Shown: in pieces, positions 53,765 through 62,612 of the stretch | Layout: the number at the start of each line of letters is the position of its first letter | How positions within the stretch are numbered: position 1 is the stretch's first letter | DNA from: Trypanosoma brucei | Lineage: Eukaryota | Assembly: GCA_000002445.1 (NCBI GenBank) | Contig: CP000068.1 | Location: 1,184,001 to 1,248,000, forward strand | Reading direction: 5' to 3' | Length of the DNA: 64,000 nt | Made by a program: the position numbers and the translations under genes | Notes under the pieces: generated by a model | The model's input: only the letters and a program-made list of their open reading frames with translations | Database searches by the model: none | Told to the model about the DNA's origin: nothing

Positions 53765-55170
53765 TTTTTTCAGTGAACATCTTACATAAACTTTGGTAGA
53801 AAATCTTAAGCACCTGTTTTGAATAACAACACTTCGGCAGCCTGTGTCGGTTGCTTGTCTTAAAAAGACATTCTTCTGCTTCATTGTACCCCTTTGTTTT
53901 AATACACAAGAATCAAAGAGATTGTTATGAAGGCAAAACGAGAAAAAAAAATGTCGCAAAGGCAAGAAATGCCGGGAATTTAAGAAGACATCCTCCCCGC
54001 CAAAGTTTTTTTTGGCCCAACGAACCGTACGAACTTGTATAGACTGGTGTAGACGAACCGTACCTGATCGAAACGAAAGTGTTTTTAAGCGTGAAGAAAT
54101 GCGATGAAGGACAAATGCGAAAATTCGAGGCAGGGACTTTAGGGAATGCCCAAACACTGTTGAGGATATTTTTAAAAAAAACCTCAGAATAAATCACCAT
54201 CTCGACGCGGTTTCAGAGCCCAATATGTAGGAACGACGGGGAAGGGAACCGAGGACCCGCAGCTAACTCCGCCAGGATTGGGTTACGAAAATAACCACGC
54301 GTGGGGCGTCAACAACAACAGCACACAAAAAAAAAACGCCGTTGCTAACCTGCAAAGCATCGAGGAAAATAATGACCTTTTTCCCTCGGTCTTTTCAGCA
54401 TGATGGCCTTCTCAGCGCAGTGGTGACACAACCTCAGCGGACATTTCCTCACCTTCCTTTGAGTTTATCTAAACTCTTCCCGTATACATCATTTTCTACA
54501 GGCGCAGCTCCTGTGGATAATTCATTCAATATTAAGGTTAATTCCTCCAAAGGGTATGCAAAATGGGTTGGCAGCTCCTCGCTATTGGTAATTCCATCTC
54601 CGAAACTTCGGACGTTTTTGTCCGCCACCTTTTCATATATTTCCACAATCACATTCATAAGTGCTGTTTTGTTGTTTGTTTTTTTGAAGCTCATTCTTCC
54701 ACCCAACACCGCACCCCCCTCCAAACGTCCCGCAATTCTTATCAGCAAAAAACAAAAAAACATTGCTTCATCCCTTTCCTACCTTATGACTCATTTTAAC
54801 AAAAGGAAAACGTTCAGGGAGTGTGAAAGCATAAACAATGACTAAACACGCGGGATTGCCTCAATAACGCATCGCGGAATACAATCACACATTACAGAAA
54901 AGAAATATAACCAATTTTATCACCAGTGCATTTCCCTGCACTTCCCCCCCCCCCTCTCCCTCAAAAAGGAACAAACAAGACGAAGGAAACACAACACACG
55001 AGGGGTTTATATTACATTTATTTATTTTTGGTTCATGCGTATGAAACCATATCCGTATGACACGTTTTTGCGCAGTGCATTGCACTTACTTTTTACACCA
55101 AGTGGATAAAAAGATAAACAAAACAAAAGGAAAAAAGGAAAAGAAACAATGGGAAAACACAATCAAGAAT
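53765..55170. other. Convergent strand-switch region (end of + strand transcription unit meets end of - strand unit); probable RNA polymerase II termination zone
   Basis: All confident genes up to 53764 are on +; all confident genes from 55171 onward are on -. No convincing ORF in between. Confidence 0.6.
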
Positions 55171-56085
55171 TCAGAATATACTGAGGAGCAAAAAAGAAAC
55201 CGCGGTAAAATATATTTTGATGATGAGGAGGGGCAACGGCGATTTAATACCGCCATCTTGTGTAGGGCGATCAACTCCATGCGCCTCAGGGGTGGCGGAG
55301 TTTTCAGGAGGTGGTTCCGTCGTTTCATTTTGTTTATCATTCTGTGATGTCGAGTGGTTTGTATTATTTTTTTTTTCTTGGGCCTGCGGTAACGATTGAT
55401 TTCGATGTGGTAATTGAAGTTTGTTTCGGGTGTCATCGCCTTCAGTGGTGGTTTCATTGTGTTTGTCATTAACTCCATTCCCTCCATTATCAGCAACCTT
55501 TTTATTGTCTTCATTTCTCGGGATTGCTTCCGCATTTTCATTACTTCTATCATCACCTTTCTTCTGATCGGTGACGTTATCATTTCCATGAACGACCGAC
55601 TCTTCTTCTCTATCAGTTTTCGGTTTTTCTTCAGGCGCTGCTTTAATTTCTTCATTGTTTTGAGTTGGCGATGCCTCTCCCTCAGCTTTTCCAACTTGAG
55701 GTGGCTGAGTTCGAATTTGTTGGACGCACTTCACTCGGTCACTGTCTTCCACATCGCAGGTATAATTGGTCTGATTAACGGATATTGTGCAATTTTTGAG
55801 ATATCTGCACAGTGGCAACACTTCCTTCTCTTGCCCATCAATCCTGCACTTACACGTAAAGTTGCTGACGTCAGGGCCGGGCATCCGATCACAAAAACCA
55901 TCGGGATCATCGGAACCATCCACATAGTTCTCCATTACTTCTTCAAGGAATTCGCAGTGTTCTTTTTGGTGTTCCTCCTCCGTTTGTGCGGGAGGGCGGC
56001 CTTTTCCAGGAAATTTCGCGTTCCATGTCTTAGCTTGAATAGCGAATGCACCCGCCAAGACTAAAAACACGACAAATATCCTCAT
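55171..56085 (-). CDS. Putative GPI-anchored surface protein: signal peptide, 8-Cys N-terminal domain, hydrophilic mucin/stalk-like low-complexity region, C-terminal GPI signal
   Basis: Signal MRIFVVFLVLAGAFAIQA. Cys spacing CEF..C..C..CKC..C..C..C..C. Multiple N-glycosylation sequons. E/N/K/D/T/P-rich stalk. Hydrophobic C-terminus SPLPLLIIKIYFTAVSFLLLSIF. Purine-rich (- strand pyrimidine-rich) tract upstream at 56190..56215. Confidence 0.45.
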   Translation of the reverse strand: MRIFVVFLVLAGAFAIQAKTWNAKFPGKGRPPAQTEEEHQKEHCEFLEEVMENYVDGSDDPDGFCDRMPGPDVSNFTCKCRIDGQEKEVLPLCRYLKNCTISVNQTNYTCDVEDSDRVKCVQQIRTQPPQVGKAEGEASPTQNNEEIKAAPEEKPKTDREEESVVHGNDNVTDQKKGDDRSNENAEAIPRNEDNKKVADNGGNGVNDKHNETTTEGDDTRNKLQLPHRNQSLPQAQEKKNNTNHSTSQNDKQNETTEPPPENSATPEAHGVDRPTQDGGIKSPLPLLIIKIYFTAVSFLLLSIF

Positions 56086-56792
56086 TATATTATTCCACTT
56101 GCAATATATTATCTAACTCCGCAAGTGTGTGCAGGTGCATGCAAATGTGAAACATATATTAATTTATTTAGTTTAGACATGTTAAAAATAGAAGAAAAGC
56201 GTCAACTGCCGCAATCGCCCGGCGAGAGTACTGCACACAAAAGACATATGAATATACACCACGCCCACAAAACTTCCGTTCCAGCGATGAAAGTCAAATG
56301 ATTTTTTCTCATTTCCTCGAAAACAGTGTTCCAACACCTTCTTTTCATGAGGTTGATAAATTATGACGTGCATGAATCTCAGCATTACCGTAAAAAATCC
56401 ATCAATGCATTCATACATTTACATCTTGTTAGGAAGGAGGGATTATTAAAAGCGCATGGAAGTGTGACGCTCCAAACTCGGTTTAGTGACATTTGCACGG
56501 GACTATTCTTCCTTCTGTTTACGCTTCTACGTTTTGACCCCGCATCTTATTAAAATAAATGAACTCAAATTAGAGCATCAGAGTGGAATATGGGAAAGGA
56601 AATGAAATATGATTTACAATTGCTGCTGACGTCTTAGCTGTTATGATGTGATATTACAAATGTGTCATGAAATAAACTACAACGCATTGCGATGAAGTGG
56701 GTTGACAGCAGAAACTGAATTTCTTCAGAGGAATATGCTCAACTAAACAACTAATGGCAAAAAGTCGATTCATTACACATCGGATGAACCAA

Positions 56793-56811
56793 AAATAAAT
56801 AAATAAATAAA
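56793..56811 (+). repeat. (AAAT)n microsatellite in the 3' flank of the - strand surface-protein genes
   Basis: aaataaataaataaataaa. Confidence 0.85.
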
Positions 56812-57175
56812 TGAACAGAGATTGATTGTTCACACCGCCTATTTTTTTTTTACGAGAAATTCACAGCGCCGTGTAAACAACACCGAAAGCGATGCATGCG
56901 CAATCCTCATGGCATGGTGGGCAACCTTTATAATAACATAGTTTTTTTTTATAACATTAATGCTGCTGAGACGTTACAGTGAGTTAATTTTAAATAATGA
57001 TACCGTTACGTGATGCCACGAGTCCCTTCTTCCGCATGAAATGAACTTAAACCAAAAATTAAAAAAAAACTAATTAAATAATGTGGCAAATGTCTTTCAT
57101 GTCTCCATCCGCATCTCCGTGTTAACAAAAAGTCGCTACAATCTGGCGGCGTGCCCTACACTTTTGTAAATTTAA

Positions 57176-57200
57176 GGAAAAGGGAAAAAGGGAAAAAGGG
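57176..57200 (+). repeat. (AGGGAAAA)3 short tandem repeat
   Basis: aaggaaaagggaaaaagggaaaaagggagg. Confidence 0.8.
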
Positions 57201-57285
57201 AGGACAAGGGACAATTCAAAGTGTGAAGAAAAAAAAAAAGGAAGCAGCTGGCAAAAAAAGCACTGAGTGGTGGCATGTTTGAAAA

Positions 57286-57320
57286 TAATAATAATAATAA
57301 TATTAATATTAATATTAATA
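57286..57320 (+). repeat. (AAT)n/(ATT)n compound microsatellite
   Basis: aataataataataataatattaatattaatattaata. Confidence 0.9.
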
Positions 57321-58054
57321 TGACGCGTCAATGGTGTTGTTCTTGGGAACAACAAGCTGGAAAGAGGAGAACAGGGGAAAAAAATATGAGGCGTTCCGTA
57401 CGCACATAAAATATGTTAATGAGGGGTAGATAAACATATAGGTAAAACTTATTAACAACAACGTTAAGAACACGTAACAACAAGAAATTAAAAAATCACA
57501 ATGAGAAAAAAAGGAAATAGATATGATCACCAAGAAAAAAAAAAGTTGTGCTAGTTATATTTCTTGTGTGCCTCAGTGTTCCCAAGAATGGGAACATAGA
57601 AACTAAGAAGAGGTTGCAGAGAAGTCGATAAATGCTGTAAAATTACGATAACACTTTAATATATATATATATATATGGAAACCAAAAAAAAAATAGTGGG
57701 AAAACAAGAAAAAAATAAAGAGGGGGACAACGCACAAAAACAAAAATGGTGGCGGCAGTCGTGAAGAGTAAATCCCTTTCTCGATGGCGCAGTAACTGCC
57801 TCTGCACGCGTAAATAAACTGTAAAATACAACAGTGCACTAAAAAGGAAATAATGGGGAAAAGGGCGGGGGAAAGCGTGTGCGCCGCCGAAATATGATCA
57901 ATTTTGGAGTAAAACAAGGAAAAGGGTGAATGGTAATGACGATGGTCAAATGGCAGGGAAATATTCCCATTTGTGGCGACACGCCCACGCTGGTCACATG
58001 AGCAGCAGCAGGATCATCATTAGCTGCGAGCCCCCCCCCCATAATATTTTTTTC

Positions 58055-58873
58055 TTAGAAAGAGAGGGCCGTGGCGGCAAGCATTACGAGAAGGAATTTC
58101 ATTGAAGTACCCACAGCCCCACTCGCTTCATCTTCCTTATCTTCATCGGAGTCGTCATCATCGATTTCAGGGAACTGAGCTGCCTCTTCTTGTGCCTCAC
58201 TCTTGGCATCATCAGCTGCATCGGCAGCCCTAACAGTCTCAGCGGTAGCTTTCTGAAGCTCCTCCAGTTTATTAGCCGCTTCATTCGCCTCCTGGAGGTA
58301 TTCCTCAGCGAAATCTTGCATGTACAGCCCTCTCAGGTTGTGAGCCGCTCTCGTAAGCGCTTCTGGCGTGACGTCGTCAGCAACAGCGGTGGCACATTCT
58401 TTAGCCAACTGCTTAATTGTTTCATTCCCTCCGTGCTCCGCGGCGCCCCTCAGCAAACCACTGAAGACACTTTCATATTCACTCTCAAAGCTGTCAAGCG
58501 CCCGGGCGAAGCGTTTTACTTCCATCGCTGCTGCTTCGGCACGTACAGATGCCTCATACGCCACCGTGGCGGCCTCCCGAGCTCTCTTTGCAGCCTGCTG
58601 CTGTTCCGATGTGCCGCCAACGGCACCCGCCTCCGCACGCTTCGCGGCCTTTTTGCCTTCCTTCGCTGCTTTTTTGCTTTCCTCCAATGCGCCTACAGCC
58701 TCGAACCTCCGCTCTTCCGTCAGTAGCGGAAGTTTACGCAGTTGTTTCGCCACCTCACATAGTGCTTTCGTCTGTTCCAATTCGGCTTCAAGATTATCGT
58801 TCGCGTAGGCGGTCGGTGCGAATATGAAGTGAAGACTGAGGCCGAGCACAAACAAAGCGCGGGAAATCATCAT
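58055..58873 (-). CDS. BARP/GARP-like alanine- and glutamate-rich, predicted helical, GPI-anchored surface protein
   Basis: Signal MMISRALFVLGLSLHFIFAPTAYA. Mature region strongly A/E/K-rich with heptad-like helices. Acidic DDDDSDEDKEDE preceding the hydrophobic C-terminal GPI signal SGAVGTSMKFLLVMLAATALSF. Confidence 0.5.
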   Translation of the reverse strand: MMISRALFVLGLSLHFIFAPTAYANDNLEAELEQTKALCEVAKQLRKLPLLTEERRFEAVGALEESKKAAKEGKKAAKRAEAGAVGGTSEQQQAAKRAREAATVAYEASVRAEAAAMEVKRFARALDSFESEYESVFSGLLRGAAEHGGNETIKQLAKECATAVADDVTPEALTRAAHNLRGLYMQDFAEEYLQEANEAANKLEELQKATAETVRAADAADDAKSEAQEEAAQFPEIDDDDSDEDKEDEASGAVGTSMKFLLVMLAATALSF

Positions 58874-59988: not shown

Positions 59989-62442
59989 TTATGGTGCGTT
60001 CCACTCAAGCGAGCGCGGGAATTGCTCATGGTTTATGAATGGCAAATCCTGCAAATCCTTCTCGTGGTGATGCATCTCCAGTTGCTGTACTGGTATGCTG
60101 TGCAGCAACCACGTTTGATCCTCTTCAAATGGGGTTTGGTCCACTTTTCCTGGAATCTGTTGCATGGGCCAAAGCTTGTTCACATTGTACACTGGTGCTG
60201 GCTCCGCAGAGATTGTAAACTGTTTATCCAAATATTTGGCGGTGTACGCCATCCAGTCCTGCGTGGCGGGTGTCTCGCTCGGCGTTGGTGGAAAACGGCT
60301 GGTTGGTGTATGGTACTCATGTGGGAACCGCTCGGCATTTTGCGGCAAATGAGGAATACTCTTCAGTTTGAATGTCTCCTCCTCCGCGATGGTGCGGGCA
60401 AGCAGCGCATCCGTGGCAGCTTGTGGTCGTAGTTGTGGTTCCACCAACCGTCGCGGCCTCCTCGCCTCCGGAGGCACACGGACAAAATCGAGACCAGAAA
60501 CGTCAGTAATGCCATCATTGACGGCCCGCAACGCTTCTTCGCTACACTGAAGACGCTTCGCTATGGCCACAAGCGTATCATTAGCATGCACACGCTCAAC
60601 CGGGCTGAACTCAGACTCGCTCGTTGACGTCCAGCAGGAAAGTGGGGCAACCAGTTCCGTTACTGAAGAATCAAACTCGCCCGCTTCGCTCTCTTTCTTC
60701 TGGTATGTCAGAGCGGCATGACCGTTACACTGTTGCAGCTCCTCTACTGTGCAATCAAGAATTGCTGCCGCCTCCTCCCATGTCCGAATACGCTCCCCAT
60801 CCTTCGCTGATGTTGTTTTTAGCGGAAGTACAAGTGGAGTCGCCCCAAAGCTTGTAAGTCTCCGTGTGGCAGTCACGGGGACATTAATCACAACTCCTGC
60901 CTCGATTGTCTCACGCTCCGCGTTCGCATCCTTCAATTCACCGACACTGCAACCCAAGCGCTGCGCCACGGCATCCCAGTTTTCACCTTCACGGACAGTG
61001 TCAGTGCTCAGTCGGTTTACTGGTGCCGACTGCCAGTCTAAAGCAAAGGAAAACATACGGTGATGTTCGTGCGTCGTTGGTGTCGCCGGGTCGTGTTCTG
61101 TAGGGAAAACCGCAGAATCGTGTATCACGTTACGTCGATAAATGGTGTGAAACTCGCAGGACGTCTGACGATGCAACCAGTGGCGTATATCGTACATGCG
61201 CTTCTCAAATTCCGTGCTTTGAAAGGGCAACTTGCATATTATTACCCTAAAGAACTTGCGAAACTCGTAGTGGGCTGTCGACATCTCAAGTTCTGTAAAT
61301 GAGGTGTCAGAAGAAGATGTCCAAAACTCGGCCATACGCACCCACGGCTCCAGTTTCTCAACGTGTGGCCATGATGTGTGCGGATCGTATATGTTTGTCG
61401 CACCTGGTACCGGTACATTACAACGGTTGATGACACTTAGACATTGCTCTTCTAGGCGCCGCAGGTCAGAGCGCAGGAAATTTGCGACCTCCTCCTTATC
61501 GTATTCATCATACCCCCCAAACGGACCGGCGCGGGCACAGTTGAATGCAGCGAGCAACTCCGGATCCACCGCACCTCCCTGCAGCAACCGACGTACCGCC
61601 ACCAACTTCTCCTCCACTATTTGGCGACCCACATCCTTCAAGAACATGCAAACATCCTCAGCCAGCTTCATCACGTGGTGATCCCAAAATCCTTCCAGAA
61701 CAATTTTGTAGGTTACCTCGGAACCACGAATACCATCCTCCTCGGTGTTCTCAAACACAAAGCGCCTATTTCGCACTTTGGCCACTTCATATTCGTACCA
61801 ATCCTCTGTTTTCCACTGGAAGGGGAACACACTTCGATCAGCGTTAATTTTTCCGGCATAAGACGGTATAGGCTCGAGCCGCCCGACGTCACGTTGCACT
61901 TCCAAAGGACTGAGAATGCGAGCGTGCTGGTGATGCTCACGCACAGCGCGATCCATTATGGTCTCCAGTGTGGGTGGTGGCGTTTTTTGATTCGCTTCGT
62001 TCATCTTCGTCAAGTAGGCGTCACGGAAGGGAAAACCTTTCTGTCCATTCCCACGGGACTTGCGTGGGTCAAATCTGGCGAACTCCCGCATGTATTGTAC
62101 ATACTCCCGGCCCTTCGCGTCGAATTCGTTGAACGGACGGAAGCGAAATGCATTCGGTGGCGCGCTTGCGCTCCACGGCCGATAATCTCCCATATGATGC
62201 GTCATGGAAGTACAGATATACCAACTGTCAACGTATTGGTCCTCAGGCACATCCGGGCGCACAAGTGGGCCGCGAATACTCATGGGAAATTTGTCGTCAA
62301 TAGGATCGATAAACTCGTTAGTTTTGGTGCTGTTCATGCTTTGTGGTGCAGCAACGGGGGCCGGACCGTCAAACTTTGGCATTTGCGTGGGCATTCGGTA
62401 CCGCGACCAATAGTACGCAACCACATGACTACGTCTAACCAT
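59989..62442 (-). CDS. Hypothetical 817-aa protein with three LysM-like repeats in its C-terminal half
   Basis: Repeats GENWDAVAQRLGCSVGELKDANAE..IEAGVVINVP, WEEAAAILDCTVEELQQCNGHAALTY and NDTLVAIAKRLQCSEEALRAVNDGITDVSGLDFVRVP fit the LysM pattern (D-T-L-x-x-I-A-x-r-x-x-x-s-x-x-x-L-x-x-x-N...G-x-x-L-x-V-P). Confidence 0.5.
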   Translation of the reverse strand: MVRRSHVVAYYWSRYRMPTQMPKFDGPAPVAAPQSMNSTKTNEFIDPIDDKFPMSIRGPLVRPDVPEDQYVDSWYICTSMTHHMGDYRPWSASAPPNAFRFRPFNEFDAKGREYVQYMREFARFDPRKSRGNGQKGFPFRDAYLTKMNEANQKTPPPTLETIMDRAVREHHQHARILSPLEVQRDVGRLEPIPSYAGKINADRSVFPFQWKTEDWYEYEVAKVRNRRFVFENTEEDGIRGSEVTYKIVLEGFWDHHVMKLAEDVCMFLKDVGRQIVEEKLVAVRRLLQGGAVDPELLAAFNCARAGPFGGYDEYDKEEVANFLRSDLRRLEEQCLSVINRCNVPVPGATNIYDPHTSWPHVEKLEPWVRMAEFWTSSSDTSFTELEMSTAHYEFRKFFRVIICKLPFQSTEFEKRMYDIRHWLHRQTSCEFHTIYRRNVIHDSAVFPTEHDPATPTTHEHHRMFSFALDWQSAPVNRLSTDTVREGENWDAVAQRLGCSVGELKDANAERETIEAGVVINVPVTATRRLTSFGATPLVLPLKTTSAKDGERIRTWEEAAAILDCTVEELQQCNGHAALTYQKKESEAGEFDSSVTELVAPLSCWTSTSESEFSPVERVHANDTLVAIAKRLQCSEEALRAVNDGITDVSGLDFVRVPPEARRPRRLVEPQLRPQAATDALLARTIAEEETFKLKSIPHLPQNAERFPHEYHTPTSRFPPTPSETPATQDWMAYTAKYLDKQFTISAEPAPVYNVNKLWPMQQIPGKVDQTPFEEDQTWLLHSIPVQQLEMHHHEKDLQDLPFINHEQFPRSLEWNAP

Positions 62443-62612
62443 TCGGTATCCTGCCGCTGCGCCCGCAGGAGTTCACACCCCCTTCGCCTCCGCAGACAAT
62501 AACTATATTTCTTCTCGCAACACAGAAAAAAGGAGGGAGAGGTCAAAATCTGCTAGTGTGATGTGGCAACAAAAAAGTTGGGGGAAAAGTTTAACTTGAG
62601 CACTGTGTGAAC

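What the first reader, a model, noticed from the sequence alone, without database searches (positions are those of the whole stretch)
60472..61011. Triple LysM-like repeat module in a kinetoplastid protein
LysM domains bind peptidoglycan or chitin-type glycans and are rare in kinetoplastids, which lack both polymers. Three consecutive LysM-like repeats (each preserving the L-x-x-I-A-x-R-L, N and G-x-x-L-x-V-P spacing) sit in the C-terminal half of an otherwise unrecognised 817-aa, apparently intracellular protein with no signal peptide. Candidate roles are binding of an unusual glycan (for example GlcNAc-containing structures) or of a nucleic acid, as in some eukaryotic LysM proteins.
Basis: seen in the sequence. 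Interest (0 to 1): 0.55.

Follow-up and report, generated by a model that had tools for sequence, protein, structure and literature searches.

The report
LysM repeats in mitoribosomal protein uS10m
The three LysM-like repeats are real, but the 817-residue protein is the already solved Trypanosoma brucei mitochondrial ribosomal protein uS10m, where this sugar-binding fold most likely serves as a structural block of a protein-rich ribosome.

Summary
Window 60472-61011 (-) encodes residues 478-657 of the 817-aa ORF 59989-62442 (-). That stretch holds three LysM units. Units 1 and 3 each pass Pfam's LysM cut-off on their own. Unit 2 does not, but profile comparison and the predicted fold show it is a degenerate LysM with a 12-residue insertion.

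The protein is not unrecognised. It is 100% identical to PDB chain 9hny_CJ and about 99% identical to 6hiv/6sg9/7pub chain CJ, which is uS10m of the T. brucei mitoribosomal small subunit. Public databases already call it a LysM domain-containing protein. The predicted module superposes over all 203 residues on those cryo-EM chains, so it is an ordered part of the ribosome from an early precursor to the mature subunit.

The most likely role is a structural, protein-contacting block on the small-subunit head. Glycan binding is unsupported, and RNA binding is disfavoured because all three units are acidic.

One small new point: a deep-branching kinetoplastid, Papus, has one LysM unit where bodonids and trypanosomatids have three. 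The finding is already known and of low to moderate interest.

The parts
59989..62442 (-). Complete gene for mitoribosomal small-subunit protein uS10m (817 aa plus stop codon)
   Evidence: One search gives the ORF. One search shows 100% identity over 817 aa to 9hny_CJ and about 99% to 6sg9_CJ and 6hiv_CJ (uS10m). Orthologues 7aor_e and 7ane_e are also named uS10m.
61726..62442 (-). N-terminal extension (aa 1-239). It starts MVRR..., which looks like a mitochondrial presequence, and it is well conserved.
   Evidence: One search shows many invariant residues. One search shows aa 1-107 are low-confidence and extended in the AF2 model. One search gives mean column identity 0.64. The presequence reading is an inference.
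61135..61725 (-). uS10 core fold (about aa 240-436) with a long helical insertion. The boundaries are approximate.
   Evidence: One search gives the element order: strand 243-251, helices 254-342, strands 360-374 and 389-405, helix 410-422, strand 428-435. (Foldseek) hits S10 chains of bacterial, chloroplast, cytosolic and mitochondrial ribosomes (1fjg_J, 6ztj_AJ, 5aj3_J, 5mrc_JJ, 8p2f_k; prob 1.00, TMt 0.56-0.73). No similarity is detectable at sequence level.
60877..61005 (-). LysM unit 1 (aa 480-522)
   Evidence: PF01476 22.0 bits, above the 20.9 cut-off, covering the full profile; strand-helix-helix-strand fold.
60643..60792 (-). LysM unit 2 (aa 551-600). It is degenerate: the first strand is reduced, and a 12-residue insertion forms an extra helix and hairpin.
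   Evidence: no Pfam hit alone; hhalign 98.2% to unit 1 and 98.5% to unit 3; helices at aa 555-562 and 566-572, last strand at 596-598.
60472..60600 (-). LysM unit 3 (aa 615-657)
   Evidence: PF01476 23.6 bits alone; strand-helix-helix-strand fold. D622, A628, R630 and N642 are invariant in 34 orthologues.
59992..60471 (-). C-terminal extension (aa 658-817). It is mostly non-globular and highly conserved, including the invariant R664-R665 just after unit 3.
   Evidence: invariant columns; little secondary structure; mean column identity 0.70 for aa 701-817.

Best explanation
The gene encodes uS10m, the mitochondrial version of universal ribosomal protein S10 in Trypanosoma brucei. A divergent S10 core (about aa 240-436) is flanked by long kinetoplastid-specific extensions. 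The stretch between the core and the C-terminal tail is a compact module of three LysM folds (aa about 480-657). These arose by internal duplication of a single LysM unit. The module is an ordered, permanent part of the small-subunit head. I infer that it works as a structural block that packs against neighbouring head proteins in a ribosome where protein has largely replaced rRNA. On this reading it is an ancestral glycan-binding fold co-opted for protein-protein architecture, not a glycan sensor. Shown here: the protein's identity, the LysM homology and fold, that the module is ordered in the ribosome structures, its phylogenetic spread, and the variation in unit number. Inferred: that its partners are proteins rather than RNA or a glycan.
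For: Identity: one search shows 100% identity to 9hny_CJ and about 99% to the 6hiv, 6sg9 and 7pua/7pub CJ chains named uS10m. 9HNY is a T. brucei mtSSU precursor.
LysM: (module profile hits LytE at 2e-11, 4uz2 at 4e-10, Ecp6 at 2e-8).
Ordered in the ribosome: the predicted module aligns over all 203 columns to chains from the early precursor (9hny), the assemblosome head (6sg9), middle and late intermediates (7pua, 7pub), the mature subunit (6hiw), T. cruzi (7aor) and Leishmania (7ane), with TMq 0.75-0.79. Between 691 and 810 of about 817-822 residues are modelled in those chains.
S10 fold.
Protein-rich context: review PMC8998825 gives an RNA:protein ratio of 1:6 in kinetoplastids and lists uS10m among the head proteins contacted by mS49.
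Charge: one search shows the three units carry mean net charges of -3.3, -5.3 and -3.1 across 34 orthologues, and the whole protein is -23.
Conservation: searches show 52 orthologues, nearly all with PF01476. Column identity is 0.53-0.55 in the units against 0.36-0.41 in the linkers.
Internal duplication: R1 vs R3 gives E 2e-28 with a shared RLGC(S/T)V motif. Papus ankaliazontas (Prokinetoplastina) has a single unit, closest to R3.
Against: I could not open the deposited coordinates, so the actual partners of the module (protein, 9S rRNA, or solvent) were not read. Acidic charge disfavours RNA binding but does not exclude it, and the basic linkers (ATRRLTS, PRR after unit 3) may touch rRNA. 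The canonical GDT...IA...N motif is retained in most orthologues, so an intact ligand groove cannot be ruled out from sequence. The primary structure papers (Ramrath 2018, Saurer 2019) were not readable here. Those I could read do not mention uS10m or LysM in their main text.
Confidence: 0.72

Rival explanations
1. The LysM module binds RNA (9S rRNA or the incoming mRNA near the head), standing in for lost rRNA helices through direct nucleic-acid contacts.
For: uS10 is an rRNA-binding head protein in all ribosomes (established knowledge), and the S10 fold is present here. The linkers and the segment after unit 3 are basic and hold invariant arginines R664 and R665.
Against: All three LysM units are net acidic in nearly all of 34 orthologues. 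No RNA-binding family was matched. The kinetoplastid head is built mostly of protein (PMC8998825).
Confidence: 0.15
2. The module keeps a working LysM groove and binds a GlcNAc-type glycan or another small ligand in the mitochondrion.
For: The canonical LysM motif is retained in units 1 and 3 of most orthologues. Loop lengths are close to the Pfam consensus. Superposition on chitin-binding LysM domains is close, at 1.1-1.8 A.
Against: The protein is a fixed ribosomal subunit in the mitochondrial matrix, where no peptidoglycan or chitin is known (established knowledge). T. brucei and T. congolense have replaced GDT by GEN in unit 1. Unit 2 is degenerate. No paper in the searchable library links LysM with trypanosome mitoribosomes.
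Confidence: 0.05
3. The module acts mainly during assembly, as a docking platform for the many kinetoplastid-specific small-subunit assembly factors, and is only a passenger in the mature ribosome.
For: It is already ordered in the early precursor and assemblosome head (9hny_CJ, 6sg9_CJ). Kinetoplastid SSU assembly uses about 39 maturation factors (PMC8998825).
Against: It is equally ordered in the mature subunit and in the T. cruzi and Leishmania mature structures (6hiw, 7aor, 7ane). No contact data were available.
Confidence: 0.08

Closest known systems
T. brucei mitoribosomal protein uS10m (PDB 6HIV/6HIW, 6SG9/6SGB, 7PUA/7PUB, 9HNY chain CJ; T. cruzi 7AOR_e; L. major 7ANE_e)
   Same: It is the same protein: 100% identical to 9hny_CJ and about 99% to the other T. 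brucei chains, with 817-822-aa orthologues. The LysM module is modelled in all of these chains.
   Different: Nothing differs. The few residue differences from 6hiv and 6sg9 are strain-level substitutions.
Bacterial tandem-LysM cell-wall enzymes (B. subtilis LytE 8I2E, T. thermophilus NlpC/P60 4UZ2/4UZ3, MltD 1E0G/8RHE)
   Same: They share the LysM sequence family and fold, and a tandem arrangement with linkers. The module profile hits them at E 2e-11 to 1e-3, and Foldseek gives prob 1.00.
   Different: They are extracellular peptidoglycan binders attached to a hydrolase. Here the repeats sit inside a mitochondrial ribosomal protein with no catalytic domain. Unit 2 is degenerate, and the units pack into one compact module.
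Plant three-LysM receptor ectodomains (CERK1 4EBY, CERK6 5LS2, CEBiP 5JCD, CHIP13 9Q83)
   Same: They carry three consecutive LysM folds of similar total length. These are the best non-self Foldseek hits over more than 200 columns (E about 2e-5).
   Different: The global TM-score is only about 0.2 with rmsd about 17 A, so the three units are packed differently. The plant modules are extracellular chitin or Nod-factor receptors.
Canonical uS10 / uS10m of other ribosomes (T. thermophilus 1FJG_J, E. coli 6ZTJ_AJ, mammalian 5AJ3_J, yeast 5MRC_JJ)
   Same: They share the S10 fold (TMt 0.56-0.73, prob 1.00). A position on the small-subunit head follows from the title of 6SG9.
   Different: They have about 100-190 residues and no LysM. 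The kinetoplastid protein is 817 aa and acidic, and its S10 core is not recognisable by sequence.
Other intracellular eukaryotic LysM proteins (for example T. brucei FAZ16, Tb927.5.3460)
   Same: A LysM domain in a non-secreted protein of an organism without peptidoglycan or chitin (PMC4827413).
   Different: FAZ16 is an unrelated cytoskeletal protein and was not compared here.

Membership tests
LysM domain (Pfam PF01476) | Sequence match above the curated Pfam gathering score | tested here: met
   The whole protein scores 36.7 bits against a cut-off of 20.9. Unit 1 alone scores 22.0 and unit 3 alone 23.6. Unit 2 alone gets no hit, and is linked only by profile-profile comparison (98.2-98.5%).
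LysM domain (Pfam PF01476) | Strand-helix-helix-strand fold of about 45 residues | tested here: met
   The AF2 module has pLDDT 90.7. Solved LysM domains superpose at rmsd 1.1-1.8 A over 44-47 columns. Unit 2 is a variant with a reduced first strand and an inserted helix and hairpin.
LysM domain (Pfam PF01476) | Binding of GlcNAc-containing glycans (peptidoglycan, chitin) | not testable with these tools
   This needs binding assays or inspection of the grooves in the deposited coordinates.
Ribosomal protein uS10 / uS10m | Physically a component of the small ribosomal subunit | tested here: met
   The protein is identical or near-identical to chains named uS10m in seven T. brucei mitoribosome entries, with orthologues in the T. 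cruzi and Leishmania structures.
Ribosomal protein uS10 / uS10m | S10 alpha/beta fold | tested here: met
   The full-length AF2 model has only moderate confidence (pLDDT 63 overall, 70-88 in the core). Foldseek matches S10 chains of many ribosomes with prob 1.00 and TMt 0.56-0.73.
Ribosomal protein uS10 / uS10m | Sequence match to S10 family models | tested here: not met
   There is no Pfam Ribosomal_S10 hit on aa 1-472. The core profile finds no S10 chain in the PDB. Membership therefore rests on fold and on position in the ribosome.
Plant-type triple-LysM receptor ectodomain | Three LysM units packed in the receptor-type globular arrangement | tested here: not met
   TM-score is about 0.2 and rmsd about 17 A against CERK1, CERK6, CEBiP and CHIP13, despite significant local similarity.

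The most novel reading that the evidence does not exclude
The LysM module of uS10m may expose at least one intact LysM groove on the solvent side of the small-subunit head. That groove could bind a non-protein ligand or an unidentified partner, linking mitochondrial translation to some other process. The expansion from one unit (Prokinetoplastina) to three (Metakinetoplastina) would then track the gain of that function rather than simple structural padding.
Probability: 0.07. Interest if true: 0.6.

Novelty: already known. Interest (0 to 1): 0.22.

Why it matters
The finding illustrates how the extremely protein-rich kinetoplastid mitoribosome was built from recycled domains. Here a bacterial-type cell-wall-binding fold became part of a universal ribosomal protein. 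The protein, its structure and its LysM annotation are all already public, so the finding adds little. Two things remain open. One is what the LysM units actually touch, which can be answered from the deposited coordinates. The other is when the single unit became three.

Tried and rejected
- I looked for sequence-level evidence of the S10 core with Pfam on aa 1-472, a core profile against PDB sequences, and hhalign against E. coli S10. None found anything. Only fold comparison worked.
- I looked for literature on the LysM module. Searches for uS10m/LysM/Trypanosoma, 'LysM domain' with mitochondrial ribosome and T. brucei, and LysM with mitoribosome returned only LysM-Cre mouse papers or nothing relevant.
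- The main texts of PMC7703582, PMC8784144, the 9HNY preprint and a 2026 preprint do not mention uS10m or LysM. Their supplements are not held.
- Ramrath 2018 and Saurer 2019 are not held.
- NCBIfam gave only weak LysM-region hits to MltD and DipM, far below their cut-offs.
- I rejected a chance motif match, because of the Pfam, profile and fold evidence.
- I rejected bacterial contamination or recent transfer, because the gene has full-length orthologues across kinetoplastids and sits among trypanosome genes for a VSG, a GARP-family protein and uL15m.
- I rejected the weak helix-turn-helix Pfam hits (HTH_23 and others). They are below cut-off and overlap the two LysM helices.
- No tRNA genes were found in the window.

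Full report
**Observation**

The window carries an 817-codon ORF on the minus strand, 59989-62442.

- Pfam's LysM model (PF01476) matches the whole protein at 36.7 bits against a curated cut-off of 20.9 (E 4e-9). It matches the 180-residue segment at 44.2 bits.
- Scanned separately, unit 1 (aa 482-522) scores 22.0 bits over the full profile and unit 3 (best stretch aa 618-647) scores 23.6 bits. Both are above the cut-off.
- Unit 2 (about aa 550-600) gets no Pfam hit on its own.

**Unit 2 and the fold**

I built an alignment of 34 full-length orthologues and compared the three units as profiles.

| Comparison | Probability | Notes |
|---|---|---|
| R1 vs R3 | 99.8% | E 2e-28, 50 columns |
| R1 vs R2 | 98.2% | E 5.5e-14, 26 columns |
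| R2 vs R3 | 98.5% | 12-residue insertion in R2 between helix 2 and the last strand |

All three units share a family-specific RLGC(S/T)V motif between the two helices. That points to internal duplication rather than separate acquisitions.

An AlphaFold2 model of aa 466-668 built on 28 orthologue segments has pLDDT 90.7 and pTM 0.72. Units 1 and 3 show a clean strand-helix-helix-strand fold. Unit 2 is a variant with the first strand reduced to a bridge, plus an extra helix and hairpin.

Sequence and fold searches agree:
- A profile of the module finds LysM proteins among PDB sequences: LytE at 2e-11, T. thermophilus NlpC/P60 at 4e-10 and Ecp6 at 2e-8.
- A profile of the whole family finds 6351 proteins at E <= 0.001 in 1.84 billion representatives. 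The non-family hits among the best 150 listed match query positions about 475-675, i.e. the module.
- Foldseek superposes single solved LysM domains at 1.1-1.8 A.

**What the protein is**

The sequence is 100% identical over all 817 residues to PDB chain 9hny_CJ. It is about 99% identical to chain CJ of 6hiv/6hiw/6hiz and of 6sg9/6sgb/7pua/7pub, which the depositors named uS10m or LysM domain-containing protein. Orthologous uS10m chains exist in the T. cruzi (7aor_e) and Leishmania major (7ane_e) mitoribosome structures. 9HNY is a T. brucei mitoribosomal small-subunit precursor.

So the gene encodes the mitochondrial S10 protein of Trypanosoma brucei, and its structure has been public since 2018.

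By sequence, the S10 core is not recognisable:
- Pfam finds nothing on aa 1-472.
- A core profile finds no S10 chain in the PDB.

By fold, the core is visible. The full-length AlphaFold2 model has overall pLDDT 63, with 70-88 in the core. It shows the S10 order of elements between about aa 240 and 436, with a long helical insertion. Foldseek matches S10 chains from bacterial, chloroplast, cytosolic and mitochondrial ribosomes with probability 1.00 and target TM 0.56-0.73.

The resulting architecture is:
1. N-terminal extension (aa 1-239)
2. S10 core (about aa 240-436)
3. Three LysM units (about aa 480-657)
4. C-terminal extension (aa 658-817)

**The module within the ribosome**

The predicted module aligns over all 203 columns, with query TM 0.75-0.79, to the experimental chains. 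These come from:
- the early precursor (9hny)
- the assemblosome head (6sg9)
- the middle and late intermediates (7pua, 7pub)
- the mature small subunit (6hiw)
- the T. cruzi and Leishmania structures

Those chains have 691-810 residues modelled. The LysM module is therefore an ordered, permanent part of the particle, and the title of 6SG9 places the protein on the small-subunit head. Its three units pack into one compact body. That packing differs from plant three-LysM receptors, where TM is about 0.2.

**How it most likely works**

Kinetoplastid mitoribosomes have an RNA:protein ratio of about 1:6. Review PMC8998825 lists uS10m among the head proteins contacted by the giant kinetoplastid-specific protein mS49.

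Three results bear on the role:
- The three LysM units are net acidic across the 34 orthologues, with means of -3.3, -5.3 and -3.1. The whole protein is -23, which is unusual for an rRNA-binding ribosomal protein.
- The linkers and the stretch just after unit 3 are basic and contain the invariant R664 and R665.
- The units are moderately conserved, with column identity 0.53-0.55. This is higher than the linkers (0.36-0.41) and lower than the core and tails (0.64-0.70).

My best reading, at about 0.7, is that the LysM fold has been co-opted as a protein-contacting structural block of the enlarged head. This is an inference, because I could not open the coordinates to read the contacts.

The rivals are direct RNA binding (about 0.15), an assembly-only docking role (about 0.08) and retained glycan or small-ligand binding (about 0.05).

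**Distribution**

A word-indexed search found 52 relatives, all full-length or fragmentary orthologues. Nearly all carry PF01476, and many are already named LysM domain-containing protein. They include Trypanosoma, Leishmania, Leptomonas, Phytomonas, Strigomonas, Angomonas, Novymonas, a EukProt entry labelled Tbor, and many unnamed environmental sequences down to 37% identity.

The exhaustive profile search added two more distant full-length members:
- P0056 is from Papus ankaliazontas, in Prokinetoplastina. It has 646 residues and a single LysM-like unit between the conserved FSFALDW motif and the C-terminal extension. That unit is closest to unit 3, at 99.3% and E 1e-20. It is sub-threshold in Pfam at 14.9 bits.
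- P0057 is from a 756-kb environmental contig with tightly packed genes all on the same strand. It also has one unit, carrying an insertion.

So the module went from one unit to three in the lineage leading to bodonids and trypanosomatids, or two units were lost in Prokinetoplastina. No member was found outside Kinetoplastea. The uS10m chains of other eukaryotes matched have 129-401 modelled residues and, given the roughly 190-280-column alignments, presumably match only through the S10 core.

**Comparison with known families, and novelty**

The gene is a member of both families it resembles. It belongs to LysM by sequence and fold. It belongs to uS10m by fold and by its physical place in solved ribosomes, although the sequence-level S10 test fails. 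It is not a plant-type receptor module.

The protein, its structure and its LysM annotation are public, so the finding is already known. In the searchable open literature I found no discussion of why a LysM module sits in this ribosomal protein. However, the primary Science papers could not be read. T. brucei also has at least one other intracellular protein annotated with LysM, FAZ16 (PMC4827413).

**Verdict**

- Novelty: already known.
- Interest is about 0.2.

The residual question of what the LysM units contact can be settled in minutes by anyone who opens 6HIW or 7PUB chain CJ.

Noticed in passing
window 44864-45988 (+): This 374-aa ORF is T. brucei mitoribosomal large-subunit protein uL15m. 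It matches 6hiv_AP over its full length at E 8e-268, and Pfam Ribosomal_L27A at E 1.6e-10. It is a second mitoribosomal protein gene about 14 kb from uS10m, on the opposite strand.
   Followed up: partly
window 58055-58873 (-): The gene next to uS10m encodes a 272-aa protein with an N-terminal signal-like sequence and a hydrophobic C-terminal tail. It belongs to the GARP family (PF16731, E 4e-51) and matches solved structure 6xz6_A, 'GARP domain-containing protein', at E 1e-132. From memory, and unverified, that entry is the T. brucei factor H receptor.
   Followed up: partly
window 52331-53764 (+), and 54000-58000: A lone A-type VSG gene (PF00913, E 8e-76, plus the VSG C-terminal domain) is the last long plus-strand ORF before the convergent strand switch. 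Plus-strand genes run up to about 53.8 kb and minus-strand genes start from about 55 kb. GC content falls to 0.37-0.43 in the gap.
   Followed up: no
P0056 (Papus ankaliazontas) and P0057 / L001 3001-5148: These distant uS10m orthologues, one from the prokinetoplastid Papus and one from an unidentified environmental contig, carry one LysM-like unit instead of three. That unit is most similar to unit 3 of the T. brucei protein, which suggests a one-to-three internal duplication in the bodonid and trypanosomatid lineage.
   Followed up: yes
window 60985-60993 (-), aa 484-486: In unit 1, T. brucei and T. congolense have GEN where most kinetoplastids keep the canonical LysM GDT motif. This is a small departure at a position that lines the ligand groove in glycan-binding LysM domains.
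   Followed up: no
window 61621-62502 (+), 60749-61063 (+), 61304-61681 (+): Long ORFs of 104-293 aa run antisense to the uS10m coding sequence. They were not scanned separately, and I take them to be by-products of the codon composition of the real gene rather than genes.
   Followed up: no
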